Below are positions 1,484 through 62,839 of a stretch of 64,000 bases of DNA, piece after piece (positions within the stretch are counted from its first letter, which is position 1; each line of letters begins with the position of its first letter). Origin of the DNA: Gammaproteobacteria bacterium. GTDB lineage: Bacteria > Pseudomonadota > Gammaproteobacteria > Eutrophobiales > Eutrophobiaceae. The notes beneath the pieces were generated by a model, which was not told the origin of the DNA, did not search any database, and was given only the letters and a program-made list of their open reading frames with translations. Position numbers and translations under genes: made by a program. Where the stretch lies: contig OZ253445.1 in NCBI GenBank assembly GCA_965261165.1, positions 845,987 to 909,986 of the forward strand, read 5' to 3'.

Positions 1484-3688
1484 TTACATTGTTTTCTGCT
1501 CACGCCTACGTTGATATAAAATAAATTCTGTATAACCGTTGGCTTGATCAAGCCCTTCAAACACCAGCTCCAGAGCCGCTTTAAACGGAATACTAGCATC
1601 GAAATTTTCTGACATAGCCTGGTAGTGAAGATTGTCTCGATTTTGACGATCAACAATCACAGCCATTCGTTTCATTGCTGCATGAACTTCATCAGCAGTG
1701 ACGATCTTATGCTGTAACCAGTTGGTAATATGCTGGCTCGATATCCTTAATGTTGCGCAATCTTCCATCAAGGCAACATCATTGATATCAAGAACCTTGG
1801 AACAACCAATACCTTGACCTACCCAACGTGAAACATAGCCCAGAATGCCCTGTGCATTGTTTTCTAATTCATGTCTGATTTCATTTGTCGTCAGTTTTCG
1901 ATCAGCACTCATTATTGGAATATCGAGAATATCATCCACTGGAATAAGTTTTTCTTTCATTAACGCATCTTGGCGGCTATTCACATTCAATCGATGATAA
2001 TGAATAGCATGTAAGGTTGCCGCAATCGGTGAAGGCACCCAGGAGGTATTGGCGCCTGCTTTAAGATGCTGGATCTTGGTCTTCATCATGTTATTCATTT
2101 CTTCTGGCATTGCCCACATGCCTTTACCGATCTGAGCACGACCTTTTAAGCCACAATTAAGACCTACCTGAACATTGGAACCTTCATAGGCTAATAACCA
2201 CTTTGCATTTTTTAATTCAGTCTTGGGAACGACAGGACCGGCTTCCATATTGGTATGAATATCATCTCCGGTTCGGTCAAGGAAACCGGTATTAATGAAA
2301 AAGACGCGTTCTTTAGCGGCATAAATACAGGCTTTAAGATTCACTGAAGTTCGACGTTCTTCATCCATGATACCCATCTTCAAGGTGTTTCGTTTTAGAT
2401 CAAGTGCATCTTCGATGCGTGCAAATAGTTGACTAGCCAATGCGACTTCATCTGGACCATGCATCTTGGGTTTAACAATATTAACGGAGCCGGTTCTGCT
2501 GTTACGCAGTGCATTATTTCCTGATAAATCATGCTTTGCACAGAGTGTCGTGATCAAGCCGTCCAGCATGGTTTCTGGAATGGGTTTTCCCTGATAAAGC
2601 ACCGCATCTGTTTCCAGGTGCATACCGACATTTCTAACCAGCATCAGGCTGCGTCCATGCATGATAACGGGTTTGCCATTAGTCCCTATATAGGTTTTAT
2701 CTGACGCCATTGAACGCTCAATGGATTTATTATCTTTGACGACGGCACGTATCAAGGTACCTTGCATAAGACCGAGCCAGTTACGGTAGACATTTATTTT
2801 GTCTGCGGTGTCCACTGAGGCAACTGAGTCTTCACAATCCATAATGGTGGTGATTGCCGATTCTAGATGAACATCATAAATGTTGGCGTGATCGCGGCGA
2901 CCAATAAATAATCCTTCACCGAAACGAATTTCAAGATGTAAACCATGATGGCAAAGTAAAATTTCGTCGGGACTTTCTGGTTTTCCGGTATAGCCAATGA
3001 ATTGTTGTGGCTTTAACAATGTTGTTTCACTGTCATCACCAAATTGCACGGTGAGCTGATTGTTTTTAACAAAATATTGCGTCACATGTTTGTGTGTGTC
3101 ACGTTCCAGTGCAAAGTGCCGATCCAGAAAATGTCGCGCACGCTCAATGACTCGAACACCACGAATCAGATTATATTTTGTAATATTTTTACAGCCGTTT
3201 GCTTCTGAAATAGTATCTGTTGAATAGAAGGCATCATAGAGACTGCTCCAACGTGCATTGACAGCGTTTAAGATATAACGTGCATTATCAAGGGGAACAA
3301 CGAGTTGTGGTCCTGAAACTTCAGCGATCTCAACATCTACATTATCCGTGCTAATGTTAAAGTCATCAGGTTCATCGACCAGATATCCGATTTTTTGTAG
3401 AAATTGTTTATAGGCAACAGGATCATGTTTTTCATTACGATGCGTTTGATGCCACTTGTCAATTTGTTGTTGTAGCTGATCACGATTGCTTAAAAGCTCG
3501 GTATTTCTGGGCGCTAGATCGCGGATGATATTTTCAAGTGATGACCAAAAGCTAGTCGCTTCAATCCCGGTTCCAGGGATAGCTTCAGTTGCTATAAAGT
3601 TGTAAAGATCTTCAGCGATATCGAGATCACCTCGTTTTTGATAGTTCATATTTCTAGTTTTCATCTCTATGGTTGCTGCATCACTCAT
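1484..3688 (-). CDS. glcB: malate synthase G
   Basis: 734-aa ORF; length and sequence (MSDAATIEMKTRNM...; typical MSG motifs) match malate synthase G; TAA stop. Confidence 0.9.
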   Translation of the reverse strand: MSDAATIEMKTRNMNYQKRGDLDIAEDLYNFIATEAIPGTGIEATSFWSSLENIIRDLAPRNTELLSNRDQLQQQIDKWHQTHRNEKHDPVAYKQFLQKIGYLVDEPDDFNISTDNVDVEIAEVSGPQLVVPLDNARYILNAVNARWSSLYDAFYSTDTISEANGCKNITKYNLIRGVRVIERARHFLDRHFALERDTHKHVTQYFVKNNQLTVQFGDDSETTLLKPQQFIGYTGKPESPDEILLCHHGLHLEIRFGEGLFIGRRDHANIYDVHLESAITTIMDCEDSVASVDTADKINVYRNWLGLMQGTLIRAVVKDNKSIERSMASDKTYIGTNGKPVIMHGRSLMLVRNVGMHLETDAVLYQGKPIPETMLDGLITTLCAKHDLSGNNALRNSRTGSVNIVKPKMHGPDEVALASQLFARIEDALDLKRNTLKMGIMDEERRTSVNLKACIYAAKERVFFINTGFLDRTGDDIHTNMEAGPVVPKTELKNAKWLLAYEGSNVQVGLNCGLKGRAQIGKGMWAMPEEMNNMMKTKIQHLKAGANTSWVPSPIAATLHAIHYHRLNVNSRQDALMKEKLIPVDDILDIPIMSADRKLTTNEIRHELENNAQGILGYVSRWVGQGIGCSKVLDINDVALMEDCATLRISSQHITNWLQHKIVTADEVHAAMKRMAVIVDRQNRDNLHYQAMSENFDASIPFKAALELVFEGLDQANGYTEFILYQRRREQKTM

Positions 3689-36559: not shown

Positions 36560-37026
36560 GACCTTTGCATCATTCACACTGATTCTACCGAAACAGGTAA
36601 AATAAGACCATTCTAAGAACCTTAAAGATTATTTATCCATGTGCTGGGAAAAACTGCCCAAGGTTCGTTCACAGATATGCCTTTAGTAGGATATAAATCA
36701 TTGTTTGAACTAGATGCTGCACAGAGAGATTATCAATTGGAAACAGATCAAAACAATATTCAGTCATCTTTATGCTTCCCGGCATCCCCGCCCTAGTTGA
36801 TGTTTAAGACGCTCATCTTGCCAGTATGGCCAGCATGGATATGGCCTAAGTGATGCGGCGATTGAGGGAAAATTCTCGCAAAACGAAACCTTTTCATACA
36901 AACTTTATAAAAAATGATATTACCTATAATATTTTGTTCAGTAGTTTTGAATGATGCAAAAATTCTCAATGGGTGAGAGAGTTTTTGAATTAGTTATCCG
37001 AGACAGCTTTTTTTTAATTTTAAATC

Positions 37027-53885: not shown

Positions 53886-53889
53886 ACCA

Positions 53890-54130
53890 CCAAGTTCAGT
53901 TGACGCTAGCGCGTCCATTTATCAATCGCCGTAACGAAGTCGTACTGCGTACCAGTGGCACCTACACCAATTACGGCGGCAGCAAAGTCAGCGCCCGACT
54001 TGGCGGCAACGATGCGATTTCATACCAAGTCCCGGGCAGCCAGTTCGATCTCCGGTGTCTATGTGGGGATTAGCCTACATCACGCCATCAAGGACAACGC
54101 AACCGTAGGCGGCGACATCGAATAACCCCC
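53890..54130 (+). pseudogene. unidentified gene fragment (short C-terminal remnant, frameshifted)
   Basis: Two frames read as ...LRTSGTYTNYGGSKVSARLGGNDAISYQVPGSQFDL... and ...GVYVGISLHHAIKDNATVGGDIE*, with no start; it looks like a decayed coding remnant. Confidence 0.2.
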
Positions 54131-54136
54131 TCGCCT

Positions 54137-54346
54137 TCAGTGCACTCCGCTCTGTTTGACATAACAGTCAAGTTTTAGACGGATTATTCCCCCCGGCCCG
54201 GCCCGGGCTCCCCTCATCAGAGAGCTGGGTTCGTAACCAGCGTTAGAACCCCCCCCTAAATCCTCCTTACTAGGGGGCTTTGTGCGTTGGTTGTTGAAAT
54301 TCGGCTTTGGCCGCGCAAGCCTGTGAAACCTAGGTCTCCGCACCAA
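54137..54346. repeat. GC-rich MITE-like repeat copy (inverted relative to the copy at 58255-58403)
   Basis: ...aacccccccctaaatcctccttactagggggctttg... matches the reverse complement of 58320-58365 (aacccaacccccctaaatcccccttatcagggggactttc); contains the palindromic C/G tracts ccggcccggcccggg. Confidence 0.45.
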
Positions 54347-54596
54347 AAATTAAAAATTTCAGACAAAATGCTGTCTTAACCATCAACTTATTTTGAACTT
54401 TCATCGGTTGATTTTGAGACGACTGTACCATTGATAATTTCACCATCCATTCCATATCCACTCATAAACAATAGTCATAATGATAATCCATGACGCAACC
54501 CGTCTATTCTCTGGCATAATGAACGTCAAAAGGTTGTTTTGATTTCAATGCCCCATAAGACACAACAAGTAATTTCCGTCTCACAGCACATACAGA

Positions 54597-54857
54597 ATGC
54601 CACTTTGCTATCAGTGCCTCTATCCCGAGCAGAATATCGCCAGCGCGAGCTGCTCAAGGGAAGGTGTTGTCGCGCCGTTAGTCGGCATCATCGGCATCAT
54701 GCAAGCGATGGAAGCAATCAACATATTGCTCGGCGATGGACAGTTGCCTGGCATAGTGTGGCTATTTGACGGCACCAGCATGGCATGGCAGAAAATGAAA
54801 CTCCCTAAGAATCCTGCTTGCCGCGCTTGTGGTGATTCAACATTGACGGAAAATTGA
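54597..54857 (+). pseudogene. moeB: molybdopterin-synthase adenylyltransferase MoeB/ThiF-family, C-terminal ~85-aa fragment only
   Basis: ...CYQCLYPE...GVVAPLVGIIGIMQAMEAINILLG...PACRACG matches the MoeB C-terminal region including the CxxC pair; there is no N-terminal Rossmann part upstream. Confidence 0.6.
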
Positions 54858-54867
54858 CGGAAATTTA

Positions 54868-57800: not shown

Positions 57801-58194
57801 AGTATCGGCATTAGATAAATTCAAGCAGGAAACAGCACAAGACATTGTCAATGAAAATCAAAATAAAACCTTATCCACGACAGAAAAAAAGGCGATTCGC
57901 TTTCTAAAAGCAATGTTAGCCCTCTCCGAAATCAATGCCGCCAATGACGCGGAACCAGACAAAATAAAGCTGGCAATCGAACAAATTAAACAGAAACGCT
58001 TTCAAAACCTAAGCAGAGACATCAACAAATTAAGTAAAAACACTAAGGAAATAAAGCCAATTGTGGTATTGGAAAGAACCTTGAACATCATTCAGAAATA
58101 TGACCTTAACCGCCATATAGAAGATAACCCAGAGCAAGCAAAAAAACCTAAAAACACCCAGCCAACCATCGTCATTTCGCAATCCTACACCTAA
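54868..58194 (+). CDS. phospholipase-D-family (single HKD) nuclease domain fused to an SNF2-family helicase with a long C-terminal extension
   Basis: 1108 aa. HKD motif HAKIYIFRPDD...GSSNLT at about 55267-55340. SNF2 motif I LADVVGLGKTVIA (55711-55725), DEAH box MVIVDEAHKF (55934-55948), motif VI QRIGRVNRIGQ. A ~280-aa C-terminal tail of unknown function. Confidence 0.85.
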   Translation: MNSKFFTNCQENTLFNKLEGIFQHNQSINNFDVLVGYFRSSGYFKLRPLLENVAHIRILVGIDVDKITTQMHADGLALFNGDREKTIKDWQKKFSTDVQEANYEQQTEQGIVQFIADIKTKKVQIKAHPSRAIHAKIYIFRPDDYNPHKGGSVITGSSNLTDAGLGTGSSSNYEFNVLLNDYNDIQFATAEFEKLWQEGIEVLPQVAEDSLKKTYLADNITPYELYLKCLIEYFGAEIEFDPNSIKDLPADFKRLSYQMDAVNEGWQMLKKHNGFFLADVVGLGKTVIAVLIARQFYYHNGYPDYRSKILLVIPPALKQNWVDTLKSFSIDDAFKIITNGSLHKISNAKDYDMVIVDEAHKFRNDSAEAYDQLQRICKTKTEHDKGKGGRDKKVMLISATPLNNRPDDLYNQILLFQDGNNSTLDFPLGSFFSKAKKEYQDILKLADKHQAGQKTAALYEKIRARVIAPLMVRRTRTDLLANKRYQQDLLEHGVVFPKTTPPKPVYCQLEAGLEKLYDNTVKKIDNKHRNKSGLLHTRYRALHYLKPELKQQYTRADFIADRLVGIMKTLLLKRMDSSFYAFGQTLGRFIRSSEAMLKMIDNNKIIIAPNLDVNSYILDGNEDELMEVIATESLTDPSIIVCCRDDFEAGFIDGIKHDYALLKTMKSDWDNITEEIGDPKLHEFLTQLPNFLDKQNNPQQKIVLFTESTDTMRYLTAEIEQTKYGEKTLSVNAQNRNQLKQAIAQDFDANIDAADKLNSHQILLTTDVLAEGVNLHRANTVINYDTPWNATKLMQRIGRVNRIGQTASHIFVYNFYPTAQIDDDIALRRRALIKLQAFHSALGEDSQIYSTDEKVDTFGIFDENIKEEVNETIPFLEEIRQFRKNDPAAYKRIKGLPSKVRNAVKNTAHQGGALVFARTEGKGSSRFYVVKPELDNASNENNIAPFIKTYSFIQTAKLLRCSPDTQATKLPEQHHSQVVSALDKFKQETAQDIVNENQNKTLSTTEKKAIRFLKAMLALSEINAANDAEPDKIKLAIEQIKQKRFQNLSRDINKLSKNTKEIKPIVVLERTLNIIQKYDLNRHIEDNPEQAKKPKNTQPTIVISQSYT

Positions 58195-58254
58195 GCCGTC
58201 ATCCCACTAATCCATATCTGTCACTCCCGCACCGCCCCGTCATTCCTGCGAAAG

Positions 58255-58403
58255 AGACTGTGCAAGAAACCCAACGTTCGTCATTCTTAACCCCCTAGCC
58301 CCCTTATCAGGGGGGAATTGAGTGGAAAGTCCCCCTGATAAGGGGGATTTAGGGGGTTGGGTTTTCCACCAGCGTAACCTAACGAGGTTTTTTACACAGT
58401 CTC
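58255..58403. mobile_element. 149-bp MITE-like element inserted in the loop of a REP-like hairpin, with a 5-bp target duplication
   Basis: The host hairpin gtcattcctgc[gaaag]caggaatccag is split. gaaag occurs at 58250-58254 and again at 58404-58408. The element's ends are imperfect inverted repeats, gagactgtgcaagaaacc versus gagactgtgtaaaaaacc (16 of 18 match); there is an internal palindrome cccccttatcagggggg / ccccctgataaggggg. Confidence 0.5.
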
Positions 58404-58550
58404 GAAAGCAGGAATCCAGTGAAACAACCAAACCGGCCAGGGTTTTCCACCATCAGTGCGGTTATTTTTCTTATTATTTCGCAACCATACACATAACATA
58501 GTACGATACACATCAAACACTAATCGTAACCCACTCAACCGGAGAGACCA

Positions 58551-58796
58551 ATGCTAAACAGCGCTCATAGAACCAATATTGTTTTAGATGAAAATGTCGT
58601 GCAAGAGGCATTAAAACTGAGCAACCTAAAAACCAGGCGCGCTTTGATAGATGCTGCCCTAAGAGAGTTTATCGTTAATCACAAACAAAACAACAGTTTA
58701 GAGGCGTTACGGGATTCATTTGGTGGCAAGAGTCCATTTTTTGAAGGGTATGATTACAAGACTTTGCGTATCAATCCGCATTTACCCGAAGACTGA
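58551..58796 (+). CDS. vapB: VapB-family (DUF2191-type) antitoxin
   Basis: 81 aa; NIVLDENVVQEALKL...RRALIDAALREFI is the DUF2191 antitoxin pattern; sits 6 nt upstream of a PIN toxin. Confidence 0.7.
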   Translation: MLNSAHRTNIVLDENVVQEALKLSNLKTRRALIDAALREFIVNHKQNNSLEALRDSFGGKSPFFEGYDYKTLRINPHLPED

Positions 58797-58802
58797 AGGC
58801 TA

Positions 58803-59216
58803 ATGTCTAAACAGTTAATATATTTAGCAGATACATCGGTGTGGATTGACTTTTTTAATTACAACACAACTGAAAAAATAGAACAATTATTCAAAACCAA
58901 TCAAATCGCATTAACACCGCTTGTCTATATGGAAGTTTTACAAGGTTCTAAAACTCAACAAATACTTGAAAAGATAGATAAAATTTTATTACAGCAAGTT
59001 TTTTATCACCTAAACGATAAACTTATTAGTTATAAGAACGCCGCACTAATTTACTCAAAATGCCGCAAAAAAGGCATTACCATTCGCTCATCCATTGATT
59101 ACCTGATTGCCCAATGTGCCATCGAGAATGAGGTTACCCTGCTCCACAACGATAAAGACTTTGTGCAAATGGCAGGGGTTATCCCAACCTTAAAACAACG
59201 GTATATCGGCGACTAA
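58803..59216 (+). CDS. vapC: PIN-domain toxin VapC
   Basis: 137 aa; N-terminal IYLADTSVWIDF... with the conserved acidic residues of the PIN fold; stop TAA overlaps the ATG of the next gene (TAATG). Confidence 0.8.
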   Translation: MSKQLIYLADTSVWIDFFNYNTTEKIEQLFKTNQIALTPLVYMEVLQGSKTQQILEKIDKILLQQVFYHLNDKLISYKNAALIYSKCRKKGITIRSSIDYLIAQCAIENEVTLLHNDKDFVQMAGVIPTLKQRYIGD

Positions 59217-62200
59217 TGAAACTATTAAACCAAGCCTATAACCAAGACAATTACCTTAATTTTCTGGCAGATCAATTCAACTTTGATAAAAACCTTGCAC
59301 CTATTGAGGTGGAAAGCAAAGAAGTCAACACTTTTACGCGGCTCGGCACCGTTACCAGCCAAGACGGCAAAAAATTACCCGTCTTTGAAATTCATATCAA
59401 GCCCAACACCCAATTAAGCAGAAACCGCGTACAGTTACGCAATCTGGTTGCCAAGCAAATTGGCAGCGAAGACGGTGCTTTAGCCGTTTATGTTGATGAG
59501 GAAAACAAACAATGGCGGTTTAGTTTTATTGCCATTGAATACCGTTTCACCAATGACGGCATTCAACAAGAGCAAACCGCCAGCAAACGCTTTACTTACC
59601 TGTTGGGCGAAAACACCCAAACCAGAACCGCCCAAGACCGCTTTAGCGCACTCAACAAGCAATCCACGCTACAAGACTTAAAAACCGCTTTTTCTGTTGA
59701 AGAGCTGAACAAGGAATTTTACGACAAACTGTATCGCTGGTATGAAAAAGCACAATGCGAAGTCGTATTCCCCAATGACGAACGCACCGACAACCACAGC
59801 CAAACCAGCCTGATTCGCCTGTTGACGCGGTTGTTATTCATCTGGTTTATCAAAGAGAAGGGGCTAATCAAGGCGGATTTATTTGATAAAGATAAATTAC
59901 AAACGCTGATTGATTACGAACAGCCCAGCAGTTTTTACAAGGCGATTCTGCAAAATCTGTTTTTTGCCACCCTCAACCGTCCGGTCACCGAGCGTAGTTT
60001 TCGCAACACAACCAACGGAGCGGCAAATAGCACCAATTATCTGGTCACCAATATCTACCGCTATCAAGATTATTTCATCGATTCGGATAAAGACAAAATC
60101 ATCGCGTTATTTGCCCAAACGCCCTTTCTCAACGGTGGCTTGTTTGAATGCTTAGACCGAGAGGCAAGCGATGCAGAAAAACAGGCTTACGATAATGATA
60201 AAACGATTCGCCCGATAGGCAGTGCCATTCGGATTGATGGCTTTTCCGATAGAGCTGATAATGAATTGGTTTTTCATAATCACCTATTTTTCAAGGACAC
60301 TATTTTCAATGACAATAAGCAGGACGATAAGCAGGATTTAGGCTTGATTGACTTGTTCAATCAATACCAGTTCACCGTTGAGGAAAGCACGCCGCTGGAT
60401 GTCGAAGTCGCCCTTGACCCCGAGCTATTGGGCAAGGTGTTTGAAAACCTGCTCGCCAGTTATAACCCCGAAACCGGACAACAGGCGCGCAAAGCCACCG
60501 GCAGTTTTTACACCCCGCGTGAAATTGTCAATTATATGGTCGATGAAAGCCTGAAACAGCATTTTCATCAGCACACCGACCTAACAGACGAGCAGATCAA
60601 TGCCCTGTTTGTTGACGCTGAATTCACCGAACAAGAAAACGCCCTCAATAAGCAACAAACAAAAGCCCTGATTTATGCCATAGATGGGCTAAAAATCCTT
60701 GACCCAGCGGTGGGCAGTGGTGCGTATCCGATGGGCATATTGCAACGGCTAGTGCTGATTTTAGAAAAAGTGGATGCAGAAAACACCCATTTCAAACAAC
60801 AGCAAATCGACAAGGCAGAACAAATCCCCGATGAAGCCAGTTGCGCCAGTGCCATAGCGGCGATAGAGCAGGTCTTTTCACAACAAAATCAGCATAACGC
60901 CTATGGCAAGAAATTAATGTTGATAGAAAACTGTATTTATGGCGTGGACATTCAACCCATCGCCATTCAAATCTGCAAGCTGCGCTTTTTTATCAGCCTG
61001 ACCATTGAACAAAGCCCTAACAAAAACAAAGCCGATAATTACGGCATCAAAGCCTTACCGAATTTAGAAACTAAGTTTATTGTTGCGAATAGTTTGCTGC
61101 CTTTGGGTGAGATGCCAAAACAAAAAGGGATATTTGATACTGGTATCGAAGAATTACAAACAAAATTAGCCCAAGTCAGGCACAAGCATTTTAGTGCCAA
61201 GACCTTAACCACCAAACGCAAATACCGCGATAAAGATAAAGACTTACGCGAGCAAATGCTGGAAGAATTAACCAAAAGCGGTGTCACTCCAGCCGTTGAA
61301 GCCAGCATGAAAAGAATCGTTCATTGGGATTTATACAATCAAAATGCAGTAGCCGATTGGTTTGATCCCAAATGGATGTTTGGCGTGGATAGTTTTGATA
61401 TTGTGATTGGTAACCCGCCGTATATCCGTCATGAATCCATTAAAGAGTTTAAGCCACAATTTGAGAAAAGTTTTTCTGTTTTTGTCGGCACTGCTGATAT
61501 TTATACCTATTTTTATGAAAAAGGCGTGCAGCTACTCAATGATAATGGACATTTATGCTACATCACCTCCAACAAATGGATGCGGGCAAAATATGGTGAA
61601 AAGTTGCGCGGCTTTTTCAAAGACAAAACCCAGCTCAAACAGATTATTGATTTTGAAGGGCAGCAGGTTTTTGAAAATGCCACAGTGGACACCAATATTC
61701 TGCTCTGCGGTAAAACTGCAAACACGCAAACCACACCCCCACTCTCGCCCAGTCATACCTATTCCCACCCTCGTCATTCCCGCCCCCACCCTCGTCATTC
61801 CCGCCCCCACCCCCGTCATTCCTGCCCCCACCCCCGTCATTCCTGCCCCCACCCCCGTCATTCCTGCGAAAGCAGGAATCCAGAGACTAACCCGCCAGCC
61901 AGTTTTCAATATCAAAAACAATTACCCGACGAGAACAACCCATTATTTAATATGGCGATTGGCGACTTATCAGCCAATGCTTACACCTTGCAGGCACCCG
62001 AAATTTTAGCCCTGAAAAAGAAAATAGAACAAATCGGCACACCATTAAAAGATTGGGATATTCGTATTAACTACGGCATAAAAACAGGTTTTAACGAGGC
62101 TTTTATTATCAACACCGCCAAACGAGACGAGTTAATAACGCAAGACCCGAAATCCACGGAAATCATCAAACCTATTTTACGCGGCAGGGACATCAAAGCA

Positions 62201-62839
62201 TATCAACACCATTGGGCGGGGTTGTGGTTGATTGCTACTTTTCCAGTATTAAAAATAAATATTGACCATTACCCCGCCATTAAAAACCATTTATTAAGTT
62301 TTTCAAAAGACCGATTAGAGCAGGCAGGAAAGAGGTTGCCAGATGGCAAAAAATCAAGGAAGAAAACAGGGAATAAATGGTTTGAAACTCAAGACCAAAT
62401 CGGCTATTACGAAGAATTTGCGAAGGAAAAGATTGTTTATAATGATATTACTAACAAGCTCTCTTTTTCATTGTCAGAGGCTGGTGAATATTTTAACAAT
62501 ACTGTCTATTTTGTTGCTAACAACAATGACATTCTTTTTCAGTTAGCGGTTCTTAACTCTAATTTAATCGACTGGTATTACAAACAAATATCAGTTCAAT
62601 TAGGGGCTGGAACTGTAAGAATGTTTAGTATTTATGTTGAACAACTCCCCATCCCGCAAATATCAAAACCAGCACAACAACCGTTTATAGCCTTAGTCGA
62701 TAAAATCCTCACCGCTAAACAACAGGGGCAAGACACCCGCACACTGGAAACCCAAATCGACCAGATGGTATATCAACTTTATGACCTCACCGACGATGAG
62801 ATTGGCATTATTGAGAATAGAAAATGTATGACAATATGA
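59216..62839 (+). CDS. MmeI/PglX-family gamma-class N6-adenine DNA methyltransferase with N-terminal nuclease-like and C-terminal target-recognition domains (Type IIL/IIG RM, BREX PglX or DISARM DrmMI-like)
   Basis: 1207 aa. The helical-domain motifs SLIRLLTRLLFIWFIKEKGLI, LFFATLN and PFLNGGLFE parallel those of MmeI. Motif X ...FYTPREIV; motif I DPAVGSGAYP; motif IV GNPPYI (61412-61423). The N-terminal YVD...IEYR aligns with the MmeI catalytic FVD...IEMK, with Lys replaced by Arg. Confidence 0.85.
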   Translation: MKLLNQAYNQDNYLNFLADQFNFDKNLAPIEVESKEVNTFTRLGTVTSQDGKKLPVFEIHIKPNTQLSRNRVQLRNLVAKQIGSEDGALAVYVDEENKQWRFSFIAIEYRFTNDGIQQEQTASKRFTYLLGENTQTRTAQDRFSALNKQSTLQDLKTAFSVEELNKEFYDKLYRWYEKAQCEVVFPNDERTDNHSQTSLIRLLTRLLFIWFIKEKGLIKADLFDKDKLQTLIDYEQPSSFYKAILQNLFFATLNRPVTERSFRNTTNGAANSTNYLVTNIYRYQDYFIDSDKDKIIALFAQTPFLNGGLFECLDREASDAEKQAYDNDKTIRPIGSAIRIDGFSDRADNELVFHNHLFFKDTIFNDNKQDDKQDLGLIDLFNQYQFTVEESTPLDVEVALDPELLGKVFENLLASYNPETGQQARKATGSFYTPREIVNYMVDESLKQHFHQHTDLTDEQINALFVDAEFTEQENALNKQQTKALIYAIDGLKILDPAVGSGAYPMGILQRLVLILEKVDAENTHFKQQQIDKAEQIPDEASCASAIAAIEQVFSQQNQHNAYGKKLMLIENCIYGVDIQPIAIQICKLRFFISLTIEQSPNKNKADNYGIKALPNLETKFIVANSLLPLGEMPKQKGIFDTGIEELQTKLAQVRHKHFSAKTLTTKRKYRDKDKDLREQMLEELTKSGVTPAVEASMKRIVHWDLYNQNAVADWFDPKWMFGVDSFDIVIGNPPYIRHESIKEFKPQFEKSFSVFVGTADIYTYFYEKGVQLLNDNGHLCYITSNKWMRAKYGEKLRGFFKDKTQLKQIIDFEGQQVFENATVDTNILLCGKTANTQTTPPLSPSHTYSHPRHSRPHPRHSRPHPRHSCPHPRHSCPHPRHSCESRNPETNPPASFQYQKQLPDENNPLFNMAIGDLSANAYTLQAPEILALKKKIEQIGTPLKDWDIRINYGIKTGFNEAFIINTAKRDELITQDPKSTEIIKPILRGRDIKAYQHHWAGLWLIATFPVLKINIDHYPAIKNHLLSFSKDRLEQAGKRLPDGKKSRKKTGNKWFETQDQIGYYEEFAKEKIVYNDITNKLSFSLSEAGEYFNNTVYFVANNNDILFQLAVLNSNLIDWYYKQISVQLGAGTVRMFSIYVEQLPIPQISKPAQQPFIALVDKILTAKQQGQDTRTLETQIDQMVYQLYDLTDDEIGIIENRKCMTI
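61764..61883. repeat. In-frame tandem array of ~5.5 copies of a 21-bp unit (cccaccc[t/c]cgtcattcc[c/t]gcc), ending in an intact REP-like hairpin gtcattcctgcgaaagcaggaatccag
   Basis: Units at 61764, 61785, 61806, 61827 and 61848; translated as HPRHSRPHPRHSRPHPRHSCPHPRHSCPHPRHSC inside the methyltransferase; the same hairpin sequence hosts the MITE at 58238-58419. Confidence 0.8.

What the first reader, a model, noticed from the sequence alone, without database searches (positions are those of the whole stretch)
58238..58419. Nested insertion: a 149-bp MITE inside the loop of a REP-like hairpin, with a 5-bp target-site duplication
The hairpin gtcattcctgc-gaaag-caggaatccag is interrupted after gaaag, and gaaag recurs immediately after the insert. 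The insert has 18-bp imperfect terminal inverted repeats (gagactgtgcaagaaacc / gagactgtgtaaaaaacc) and an internal G/C-tract palindrome. It sits between the helicase gene and vapB, where it could supply or disrupt promoter or terminator functions.
Basis: seen in the sequence. Interest (0 to 1): 0.55.

Follow-up and report, generated by a model that had tools for sequence, protein, structure and literature searches.

The report
MITE inserted in a hairpin's loop
A 150-bp non-coding transposon (a MITE derived from an IS1182-family insertion sequence) has landed exactly in the four-base loop of a repeated DNA hairpin between a helicase gene and a toxin-antitoxin pair; it is a real, well-behaved example of a known kind of event rather than a new mechanism.

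Summary
The insert is 150 bp (58254-58403), not 149. The duplication is 4 bp (GAAA, the whole tetraloop of ATTCCTGC-GAAA-GCAGGAAT), not 5.

- **Empty site:** an exact uninterrupted copy of the 27-nt hairpin lies 3.4 kb away (61857-61883).
- **Family:** the 18-nt terminal repeat occurs at over 100 sites in four sponge-symbiont gammaproteobacterial MAGs. There it bounds about 121-bp MITEs with 4-bp duplications.
- **Autonomous partner:** the same repeat also bounds about 1.87-kb elements encoding an IS1182-family transposase.
- **Target preference:** 114 of 304 element ends abut the hairpin stem at exactly 4 nt (about 0.4 expected). Other targets read C|NNNN|G.
- **Conserved geometry:** a distant IS1182 relative in Parabacteroides has the same ends and also sits in a tetraloop.
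- **Hairpin identity:** it resembles the Neisseria dRS3/NTS repeat, the site of the Ssn nuclease, but has two compensatory changes and fails the published thresholds.
- **Window subfamily:** the MITE's usual internal hairpin is replaced by a G/C palindrome doublet that otherwise matches only cyanobacterial plasmids.

No promoter or terminator consensus was found. I rate this a new member of a known kind, of moderate interest.

The parts
58196..58249 (+). 5' part of the host repeat module. It holds degenerate half-site units (CCGTCATCCC, GTCACTCCCGC-ACCGCCC) and then CGTCATTCCTGC, whose last 8 nt (58242-58249, ATTCCTGC) form the left stem of the hairpin.
   Evidence: The same unit structure is seen in free modules of related genomes and in the array at 61752-61867.
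58250..58253 (+). Left copy of the 4-bp target-site duplication GAAA, which is the tetraloop of the hairpin.
   Evidence: The 4-bp length is set by 14 family members at non-hairpin sites and by the 4-nt stem-to-repeat spacing at 114 ends.
58254..58403 (+). 150-bp MITE, a non-autonomous derivative of an IS1182-family insertion sequence, of the palindrome-core subfamily.
   Evidence: The closest copy is L053:1373-1527. Its ends are identical to those of the roughly 1.87-kb IS.
58254..58271 (+). Left terminal inverted repeat GAGACTGTGCAAGAAACC, identical to the family consensus.
58289..58358 (.). Internal G/C-tract palindrome doublet: two inverted units, each with its own CCCCC..GGGGG mini-hairpin. 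It takes the place of the hairpin module carried by canonical 121-bp family members.
   Evidence: (I2, I4) and the alignment. It is about 81% identical to intergenic repeats on cyanobacterial plasmids, and 23 of 23 plasmid records hit are cyanobacterial.
58386..58403 (-). Right terminal inverted repeat (GAGACTGTGTAAAAAACC on the minus strand). It matches the left repeat at 16 of 18 positions.
58404..58407 (+). Right copy of the 4-bp target-site duplication GAAA.
58408..58452 (+). Right stem GCAGGAAT (58408-58415) plus the conserved tail of the host repeat module (CCAGTGAAACAACCAAACCGGCCAGGGTTTTCCACCA).
   Evidence: the same tail follows free hairpins in related genomes. D5: GGGTTTTCCACCA recurs inside the MITE.
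61752..61883 (+). Paralogous 'empty site'. Five 21-bp half-site units end in the intact hairpin CGTCATTCCTGC-GAAA-GCAGGAATCCAG (61856-61883), in frame inside the type IIG restriction-modification gene.
54252..54277 (-). Solo, degenerate half-unit of the palindrome core (CCCCCTAGTAAGGAGGATTTAGGGGG on the minus strand), outside any MITE.
   Evidence: (I4, 88% complementary to 58331-58356).

Best explanation
[quoted passage not shown] It carries the two 18-bp ends of an IS1182-family insertion sequence but no transposase gene.

**Proposed mechanism (inferred).** A transposase supplied in trans binds the ends. It makes cuts staggered by 4 bp at a C|NNNN|G site. Repair of the gaps duplicates the four bases.

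**Target preference (shown).** The family strongly prefers the tetraloop of a short perfect hairpin, so the whole loop becomes the duplication and the two stems end up flanking the element. Here the target was ATTCCTGC-GAAA-GCAGGAAT. This is the hairpin of a dispersed dRS3/NTS-like repeat module that lies between the helicase gene and vapB.

**What is shown.**
- The anatomy of the insertion.
- The empty paralogous site.
- The existence of the family and of the autonomous partner.
- The 4-bp duplication and the loop preference.

**What is inferred.**
- That the transposase recognises hairpin or palindrome geometry.
- That this particular copy arrived by transposition, either in this lineage or in a donor of the defence island.

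**Likely local consequence (inferred).** The insertion splits the small hairpin. The 181-nt composite should instead fold as one long stem-loop if it is transcribed or single-stranded.
For: **Anatomy in the window**
- The repeats, the duplication and the exact restoration of a 27-mer that exists intact at 61857-61883 are all present.

**The family in other genomes**
Of these, 105 lie in four sponge-symbiont MAGs.
- There are 55 short repeat-bounded elements, with a modal length of 121-122 bp.
- A roughly 90% identical copy of this subfamily is at L053.

**Autonomous partner**
- Elements of 1862-1893 bp (most 1866-1871) carry the same ends and a single 564-aa ORF.
- That ORF scores 401 bits against NF033551, IS1182 family transposase, whose cutoff is 270.

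**Target preference**
- At 114 of 304 repeat ends the 8-nt stem finishes exactly 4 nt outside the element. At every other offset the count is 0-3, and about 0.4 is expected by chance.
- Where both flanks are hairpin stems and the two 4-mers match, the duplication is the loop itself: CTGC, CTTC, TTTC or GAAA.
- The element sits in both orientations relative to the asymmetric hairpin flanks: the window and L053 one way, L031 the other.
- At the 14 non-hairpin targets the base left of the duplication is C in 14 of 14, and the base to its right is G in 12 of 14.

**Conserved geometry**
- A Parabacteroides IS whose transposase is 32% identical has the same terminal 18 nt. It sits in CCGGCAGT-TTCA-ACTGCCGG with the duplication TTCA.

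**Literature**
- The IS1182-family elements IS1272 and TnSha1 target hairpins, and some family members target palindromes (PMC4923244, PMC5678879).
Against: - Only one copy and no transposase gene are present in the 64-kb window. Copy number and current mobility in this genome are therefore unknown.
- No orthologous empty allele of this locus was found. The only other contig carrying the locus is identical, and the metagenome scan for the flank gave 0 hits.
- Many pairings of repeat ends in the related genomes lack matching 4-mers. Part of this comes from non-cognate pairing in my script, and part probably from rearrangements.
- The mechanism of hairpin recognition is inferred from insertion sites only.
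Confidence: 0.88

Rival explanations
1. The hairpin arms belong to the element. On this view the true mobile unit is 58239-58419 with roughly 30-nt inverted repeats (ATTCCTGCGAAAGAGACTGTGCAAGAAACC), and there was no insertion into a pre-existing hairpin.
For: - One search reports a 30-nt, 80% complementary inverted repeat that spans the arms plus the terminal repeats.
- The junction of stem, GAAA and repeat recurs often in related genomes.
- L053 matches the window across the flanks as well.
Against: - The uninterrupted hairpin exists on its own, in the window and 35-89 times in the sampled loci.
- At least 14 family members sit at unrelated sites with 4-bp duplications directly abutting GAGACT...AGTCTC.
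- The loops, and with them the duplications, vary: GAAA, CTGC, CTTC.
- The element occurs in both orientations relative to the asymmetric hairpin flanks.
Confidence: 0.03
2. The insertion did not happen at this locus in this lineage. The already-interrupted repeat module was acquired as a unit, either with the horizontally transferred defence island or by recombination or gene conversion between repeat modules. On this view the copy is a fossil with no partner transposase in the genome.
For: - The window's coding DNA is only about 64-67% identical to the sponge-symbiont MAGs, yet the MITE plus its flanks is about 90% identical to L053.
- The element lies in a helicase / VapBC / type IIG RM / Dcm island that is bordered by non-coding DNA and a possible gene fragment.
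- There is no IS1182 transposase gene in the window.
- The right repeat carries a substitution that is rare in the family (one search compared).
Against: - This is compatible with the main explanation rather than opposed to it, because a transposition into the loop is still required at the origin.
- The flanks that match L053 are themselves a dispersed repeat, so flank similarity does not prove transfer as a unit.
- The duplication is perfect.
Confidence: 0.35
3. The structure is primarily a functional RNA or DNA element selected at this position, such as a terminator, an attenuator of read-through into vapBC, or an sRNA. Its transposon-like features would then be incidental.
For: - The composite folds far better than shuffled controls. 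As DNA it reaches -47.9 kcal/mol with z = -8.2, and the intergenic RNA gives z = -6.0.
- It sits between two genes on the same strand.
Against: - No Rfam family reaches its threshold. The only hits are weak ones to eukaryotic miRNA and snoRNA models, below their gathering scores.
- No terminator-like or sigma-70-like site lies in 58000-58700.
- The same sequence family is scattered at unrelated sites in other genomes.
- Strong folding is expected for any nested palindrome.
Confidence: 0.05
4. It is a chance coincidence of a short direct repeat and an imperfect inverted repeat.
For: None beyond the short length of the duplication.
Confidence: 0.01

Closest known systems
IS1272 / TnSha1 (IS1182 family, staphylococci)
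   Same: - The same transposase family: NF033551 is met by the partner IS.
- Hairpin or inverted-repeat structures are the preferred targets, with multiple independent hits in both orientations.
- Tandem duplications of one element end have been reported for IS1272, and similar solo-end arrays are seen here (PMC4923244, PMC5678879).
   Different: - IS1272 and TnSha1 cut in the stem, delete or replace part of the hairpin, and leave no duplication.
- Here both stems are kept, and the 4-nt loop is duplicated exactly.
- The element here is a 150-bp MITE, not the IS or a gene-carrying transposon.
REP-targeting insertion sequences (IS1397/ISKpn1, IS621, ISPpu9/10, ISPa11, ISRm22; Tobes & Pareja 2006, PMC1525189)
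   Same: A dispersed palindromic repeat family serves as a hot spot, and the insertion falls at a fixed position inside the palindrome.
   Different: - Those elements belong to the IS3, IS110, IS4, IS256 and IS5 families. IS1182 is not on that list.
- This family also uses non-repeat C|NNNN|G sites.
- The canonical MITE of this family carries its own copy of the target hairpin.
Neisseria dRS3 / NTS repeats and Ssn-related motifs (PMC11893778)
   Same: - The host hairpin CGTCATTCCTGCGAAAGCAGGAATCCAG matches the NTS consensus CGTCATTCCCGCGMAVGCGGGAATCYRG at 26 of 28 positions. This includes the orientation-specific flanks CGTC... and ...TCCAG.
- The two differences are a compensatory C-G to T-A change in the stem.
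- Some copies in the related MAGs have the exact dRS3 core ATTCCCGCCTGCGCGGGAAT (L038).
   Different: - The hairpin fails the paper's own thresholds: NTS with at most 1 mismatch, dRS3 exact, and the SRM pattern.
- No GIY-YIG (ssnA-like) ORF was seen in the window by a motif scan.
- Here the hairpin is preceded by 21-bp tandem half-site units and followed by a conserved tail of about 35 nt.
REPIN-type doublets / cyanobacterial small dispersed repeats (compared from my own knowledge of Bertels & Rainey 2011 and Elhai et al. 2008; those papers were not read here)
   Same: The MITE's internal core consists of two inverted copies of a unit that is itself a small G/C hairpin. Close relatives occur in intergenic DNA of many cyanobacterial plasmids.
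   Different: - No RAYT gene or independent mobility was shown.
- In the sampled proteobacterial loci the core is almost always part of the MITE (12 of 14 units).

Membership tests
Bacterial MITE (non-autonomous TIR element) | Terminal inverted repeats | tested here: met
   The 18-nt repeats match at 16 of 18 positions and are the only two matches in 64 kb.
Bacterial MITE (non-autonomous TIR element) | Target-site duplication of fixed length | tested here: met
   GAAA flanks the element on both sides. The duplication is 4 bp in 14 of 14 related copies at non-hairpin sites that have matching flanks.
Bacterial MITE (non-autonomous TIR element) | Small size and no transposase gene | tested here: met
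   The element is 150 bp. Only spurious ORFs of at most 63 aa overlap it.
Bacterial MITE (non-autonomous TIR element) | Multiple dispersed copies | tested here: inconclusive
   - Met in other genomes: 55 short repeat-bounded elements in 0.9 Mb of sampled loci.
- Only one copy lies in the 64-kb window.
- The rest of this genome was not available.
Bacterial MITE (non-autonomous TIR element) | Empty (unoccupied) target site | tested here: met
   A paralogous exact empty site lies at 61857-61883. An orthologous empty allele was sought and not found.
IS1182-family derivative | Ends identical to those of an autonomous element whose transposase meets the family model | tested here: met
   - L026:2095-3964, L111:1038-2906 and about 12 others have the same terminal 12-18 nt.
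- The ORF scores 401 bits against NF033551, cutoff 270.
- Pfam domains DUF772, DDE_Tnp_1 and DDE_Tnp_1_6 are present.
IS1182-family derivative | Same duplication length and target choice as the autonomous element | tested here: met
   Of 14 IS-length pairings, 6 have a perfect 4-bp duplication with hairpin stems on both sides, and 4 more have hairpin stems on both sides.
IS1272/TnSha1-type hairpin targeting | Insertion into hairpin structures | tested here: met
   At 114 of 304 ends the stem finishes exactly 4 nt from the element. The Parabacteroides relative sits in a different, unrelated hairpin.
IS1272/TnSha1-type hairpin targeting | Blunt cut in the stem, partial deletion or replacement of the target, and no duplication | tested here: not met
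   Both stems are intact and the loop is duplicated.
dRS3 (Neisseria) | ATTCCC-N8-GGGAAT, exact | tested here: not met
   The window has ATTCCTGC-GAAA-GCAGGAAT, with one compensatory change per arm. Some copies in the related MAGs do meet the pattern (L038).
NTS / Ssn-related motif (PMC11893778) | CGTCATTCCCGCGMAVGCGGGAATCYRG with at most 1 mismatch, or the degenerate SRM pattern | tested here: not met
   - The hairpin has 2 mismatches to NTS.
- The SRM pattern does not match the intact site.
- In the sampled MAG loci there are 0 sites at 1 mismatch or fewer and 23 at 2 or fewer.
NTS / Ssn-related motif (PMC11893778) | Genome encodes an SsnA (small GIY-YIG) nuclease, often next to the repeats | tested here: inconclusive
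   A motif scan of six-frame ORFs found no GIY-YIG candidate in the window or in the sampled loci. That scan is a crude regex, and only 64 kb of this genome is available.
REP-targeting IS (Tobes & Pareja) | Insertion at a fixed position within a dispersed palindromic repeat | tested here: met
   The offset is specific: 114 ends at 4 nt against 0-3 at every other offset.
REPIN / RAYT system (for the internal core only) | Inverted doublet of a short palindromic unit | tested here: met
   (I2, I4, I6, I7) and the alignment.
REPIN / RAYT system (for the internal core only) | Associated RAYT (Y1 transposase) gene and independent dispersal | not tested
   No RAYT search was done. In the sampled loci the core is nearly always inside the MITE.

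The most novel reading that the evidence does not exclude
This clade of IS1182-family transposases recognises DNA geometry: a stem closed by a C-G pair around a 4-nt loop. Its integration is a precise 'loop-duplicating' reaction, conserved from Bacteroidota to Gammaproteobacteria.

In sponge symbionts it has been co-opted onto the dRS3/NTS-like repeats, which in Neisseria are the recognition sites of the single-strand nuclease Ssn. The canonical MITE carries its own copy of that hairpin, so each insertion destroys one landing pad and delivers a new one. This allows self-nesting arrays.

Subfamilies swap the internal module. Here the module is a cyanobacterial-type palindrome that is in turn the target of an IS110 element. 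Insertions of this family would then also inactivate Ssn sites, coupling transposon activity to whatever Ssn and NTS control.
Probability: 0.25. Interest if true: 0.6.

Novelty: new member of a known kind. Interest (0 to 1): 0.4.

Why it matters
For this window the finding is mostly housekeeping. It explains the odd 357-bp spacer between the helicase gene and vapBC, and it identifies the repeat families that also sit inside the neighbouring restriction-modification gene.

More broadly, it documents a previously undescribed MITE and IS pair of the poorly studied IS1182 family. The target rule is unusually clean: the tetraloop of a hairpin, with the duplication equal to the loop.

The pair is shared between distantly related sponge-associated Gammaproteobacteria. 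The same geometry appears in a Bacteroidota relative.

That gives a concrete, testable handle on how IS1182 transposases read hairpins, which the IS1272/TnSha1 work left open. It also links them to dRS3/NTS-like repeats, whose only known partner so far is the Ssn nuclease.

Tried and rejected
- **Literature search for the sequences:** the core gave 0 papers, and the hairpin half gave only unrelated primer hits.
- **Viral contig scan for the repeat:** 0 hits.
- **Metagenome scans:** both were empty. One used a locus-specific flank to look for an empty allele, and the other used a 24-mer of the core.
- **Exact-protein look-ups for VapC and IlvD:** these returned only one short ENA contig identical to the window. 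The contig of more than 1 Mb that also carries these proteins was not delivered, so the organism could not be named.
- **Rfam:** there were only sub-threshold hits to eukaryotic miRNA and snoRNA models, as expected for any long hairpin, and I rejected them.
- **Promoter and terminator consensus scan:** nothing in 58000-58700.
- **GIY-YIG motif scan for an Ssn-like gene:** nothing in the window or in the sampled loci.
- **Host module as a decayed canonical MITE (considered and rejected):** no left repeat is present upstream, and free modules ending at GGGTTTTCC are common in related genomes.
- **62729-62826 as a DNA repeat (considered and rejected):** it is the conserved C-terminal coding region of type IIG enzymes.

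Full report
**1. What is in the sequence**

The spacer between the stop codon of a 1108-aa PLD+SNF2 helicase gene (58194) and the start of vapB (58551) is 357 bp. Within it lie the following features.
- CGTCATTCCTGC at 58238-58249.
- GAAA at 58250-58253.
- An element running from GAGACTGTGCAAGAAACC (58254) to GGTTTTTTACACAGTCTC (ending at 58403).
- GAAA again at 58404-58407.
- GCAGGAATCCAG at 58408-58419.

The two 18-nt ends match at 16 of 18 positions. They are the only matches to that pattern in the 64-kb window.

Deleting 58254-58407 recreates the 27-mer GTCATTCCTGCGAAAGCAGGAATCCAG. This 27-mer occurs uninterrupted and exact at 61857-61883, whereas none is expected in shuffled sequence.

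Inside the element, 58299-58314 and 58331-58346 are perfectly complementary 16-mers. Further nested complementarity makes the 181-nt composite fold as one long hairpin, at -47.9 kcal/mol as DNA with z = -8.2.

The only ambiguity is the G at 58254. It can be read as the last base of a 5-bp GAAAG duplication or as the first base of the inverted repeat.

**2. The family, and the resolution of that ambiguity**

- 105 of them lie in four long-read MAGs of sponge-associated Gammaproteobacteria.
- These are two Ca. Spongiihabitans species (39 and 21 loci), a MAG labelled uncultured Pseudohongiella (34) and a Ca. Poriferihabitaceae MAG (11).
- In about 0.9 Mb of retrieved DNA there are 304 element ends.
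- There are 55 short end-to-end pairs, most of them 121-122 bp long.

Fourteen of these elements sit at unrelated sites with perfect 4-bp direct repeats that abut GAGACT...AGTCTC directly. Examples are AACA, TTTG, TGTA, TTCC and TAAG. The duplication is therefore 4 bp. In the window the element is 58254-58403 (150 bp) and the duplication is GAAA.

The closest relative of the window's copy is L053:1373-1527 in Ca. Spongiihabitans. It is about 90% identical, and the similarity includes the flanking repeat module. The window's protein-coding DNA is only about 64-67% identical to these MAGs. The window's organism is therefore different. I could not name it, because the only other contig found carrying these genes is an identical 7.6-kb ENA metagenome contig.

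**3. The autonomous partner**

The same ends also bound elements of 1862-1893 bp, most of them 1866-1871 bp. Examples are L026:2095-3964 and L111:1038-2906, and there are about a dozen more.
- Each carries one ORF of about 564 aa with Pfam domains DUF772, DDE_Tnp_1 and DDE_Tnp_1_6.
- The ORF scores 401 bits against NCBIfam NF033551, 'IS1182 family transposase', whose cutoff is 270.
- Its best plasmid-borne relative is only 49% identical, an IS1182-family gene in Sulfurimonas aquatica. This is a new IS of that family.

The window's element is thus a non-autonomous derivative, a MITE. No transposase gene of this kind lies in the window.

**4. Target choice**

At 114 of the 304 ends, the 8-mer ATTCCYGC (at most 1 mismatch) finishes exactly 4 nt outside the element. 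At every other offset from 0 to 8 nt the count is 0-3. About 0.4 is expected from the 8-mer's frequency.

Where both flanks are hairpin stems and the two 4-mers match, the duplication equals the loop. Examples are attcccgc-CTGC-gcgggaat, attcctgc-CTTC-gcaggaat and attcctgc-TTTC-gcaggaat. Of 14 IS-length pairings, 6 show this with a perfect duplication, and 4 more have stems on both sides.

The element occurs in both orientations relative to the asymmetric outer flanks of the hairpin. The window and L053 have one orientation and L031 the other. This argues for independent insertions, not for one composite that spreads as a unit.

At the 14 non-hairpin sites, the base before the duplication is C in 14 of 14. 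The base after it is G in 12 of 14. The 8 nt on either side are slightly more complementary than chance, at a mean of 3.1 against 2. The minimal target is therefore C|NNNN|G, which is the closing pair and loop of a tetraloop hairpin.

One of the scan's 'stray' hits is informative.
- In Parabacteroides sp. PM6-13 (L063:3549-5320), a 1772-bp IS encodes an IS1182 transposase only 32% identical to the sponge-MAG one (NF033551, 344 bits).
- It has the same terminal 18 nt.
- It sits in the loop of an unrelated perfect hairpin, CCGGCAGT-TTCA-ACTGCCGG, with the duplication TTCA.

The loop-duplicating geometry therefore looks like an old property of this branch of the family. It is more likely to be read from structure or symmetry than from the particular stem sequence. 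That last step is inference.

**5. What the hairpin is**

The host hairpin is part of a longer dispersed module with three parts.
- One to several 19-21-bp units, each carrying the left arm (GTCATTCCYGC plus a C-rich spacer).
- The complete hairpin.
- A conserved tail of about 35 nt, CCAGTAAAAYAGCCAAACCCGCAAGGGTTTTCC.

The 28-nt centre, CGTCATTCCTGCGAAAGCAGGAATCCAG, matches the Neisseria Transformation Sequence at 26 of 28 positions. The NTS consensus is CGTCATTCCCGCGMAVGCGGGAATCYRG, an extended dRS3 repeat. The two differences form a compensatory C-G to T-A change in the stem (PMC11893778). In Neisseria the NTS is bound as single-stranded DNA by the small GIY-YIG nuclease SsnA, which cuts a few nucleotides upstream. 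NTS-like motifs occur widely next to ssnA homologues.

By that paper's own criteria the window's hairpin is not a member. It has 2 mismatches where at most 1 is allowed, and the degenerate SRM pattern fails. A crude motif scan found no GIY-YIG ORF in the window. I therefore call it dRS3/NTS-like and leave any Ssn connection open.

**6. Modular structure of the MITE**

Aligning family members shows that the canonical 121-bp MITE consists of the two IS ends around its own copy of the hairpin module (GTCGTTCCTGC-GAAA-GCAGGAACCCAGTAAAATAGCCAAACCCGCAAGGGTTTTCCAC). Longer copies contain extra 21-bp half-site units.

Because the MITE carries a target, MITEs nest in MITEs. In L031 the right flank of the element continues into the inverted left end of a canonical MITE.

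The window's copy belongs to a subfamily with a different internal module.
- The stretch between GTCATTC and GGGTTTTCCAC is replaced by a roughly 70-bp doublet of G/C mini-hairpins (58289-58358).
- At least 14 units of this core occur in the sampled Spongiihabitans loci, 12 of them in MITE context.
- In the plasmid database the core matches only cyanobacteria: 23 of 23 records, up to 84% identity over 86% of the 77-nt query, all in intergenic DNA.
- In three Spongiihabitans loci (L031, L057, L101) an IS110-family element is inserted at the same position of this core, after CCCCCTGATAA.

Whether the core reached these Proteobacteria by transfer from cyanobacteria is not settled.

**7. Function at this locus**

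No sigma-70-like promoter or intrinsic-terminator consensus lies in 58000-58700. No Rfam family reaches its threshold.

The insertion splits the small hairpin, so it can no longer form on its own. It replaces that hairpin with a much longer, very stable stem-loop between two genes on the same strand. Any effect on read-through into vapBC or on an Ssn-type interaction is conjecture.

**8. Comparison with what is known, and verdict**

- Hairpin or palindrome targeting is already documented in the IS1182 family for IS1272 and TnSha1. A review cited in that work also notes palindromic targets for other family members (PMC4923244, PMC5678879).
- Those elements cut in the stem, delete part of the target and leave no duplication. 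Here the stems survive and the loop is duplicated.
- Insertion sequences that home to REP-type repeats are known from the IS3, IS110, IS4, IS256 and IS5 families (PMC1525189).

The finding is therefore a genuine nested insertion and a new, unnamed MITE and IS pair. It has an unusually tidy target rule and is shared among sponge-associated bacteria. I rate it a new member of a known kind.

Confidence in the main explanation is 0.88. What remains uncertain is whether the insertion happened in this lineage and whether the element is still mobile.

Noticed in passing
window 61752-61912 (inside ORF 59216-62839): Five 21-bp half-site units plus the intact dRS3/NTS-like hairpin and its tail lie in frame inside a 1207-aa type IIG restriction-modification gene. 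They encode ...SHPRHSRPHPRHSRPHPRHSCPHPRHSCPHPRHSCESRNPE... The array falls in the linker between the Eco57I methylase domain (to about aa 837) and the TaqI_C specificity domain (from aa 985). So a dispersed DNA repeat has been absorbed into a coding sequence without breaking it. Homologues lacking the insert were not examined.
   Followed up: partly
L031:1020-2560, L057:~1638-3115, L101:~2313 (Ca. Spongiihabitans): An IS110-family element (DEDD_Tnp_IS110 plus Transposase_20; frameshifted in L031) is inserted at the same point of the MITE's palindrome core (after CCCCCTGATAA) in three separate loci. In L031 this gives four nesting levels: canonical MITE > variant MITE > palindrome core > IS110.
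   Followed up: partly
L063:3549-5320 (Parabacteroides sp. PM6-13): A 1772-bp IS1182-family IS has the same terminal 18 nt as the sponge-symbiont family but only 32% transposase identity. It is inserted in the tetraloop of the perfect hairpin CCGGCAGT-TTCA-ACTGCCGG, with the duplication TTCA.
   Followed up: yes
L026:2072-3766 and L111:1236-3014: The transposase ORF has no stop codon inside the IS. It reads through the terminal repeat into the target, so its C-terminus depends on the insertion site. It ends ...AQSRKQESSD in a hairpin loop, and in L111 it is extended by (GNDGGCG)n where the IS abuts a 21-bp array.
   Followed up: no
L014:925-1022, L092:1916-2461, L107:2983-3184, L043:2679-2837: Tandem arrays of solo element ends, each preceded by a hairpin half-site, with periods of about 40, 59-85 and 166 bp. 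They recall the tandem left-end duplications described for IS1272 (PMC5678879).
   Followed up: no
window 54252-54277 (and 54190-54290): A solo, degenerate half-unit of the cyanobacterial-type palindrome core lies in the non-coding stretch upstream of the helicase gene, next to a G/C-rich tract. It is outside any MITE.
   Followed up: partly
window 53886-54867: This is nearly 1 kb without a long ORF between ilvD and the helicase gene. It contains only an 86-aa ORF (54597-54857) that could be a gene fragment. Together with VapBC, the type IIG RM gene and a low-GC (35%) Dcm methylase gene starting at 62836, it suggests an inserted defence island.
   Followed up: no
window 36639-36819: A non-coding stretch downstream of ORF 36017-36559 matches six of the sponge-symbiont loci at about 72-76% identity. 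It may be a remnant of another shared mobile element and was not identified.
   Followed up: no
loci L019, L033, L039, L050, L080, L099 (sponge-symbiont MAGs): A second hairpin type, TCCCCGC-GCAG-GCGGGGA (preceded by gcgaagcctg), is often fused directly upstream of the GCAGGAATCCAGTAAAAC tail. This indicates further modular repeat families in these genomes.
   Followed up: no
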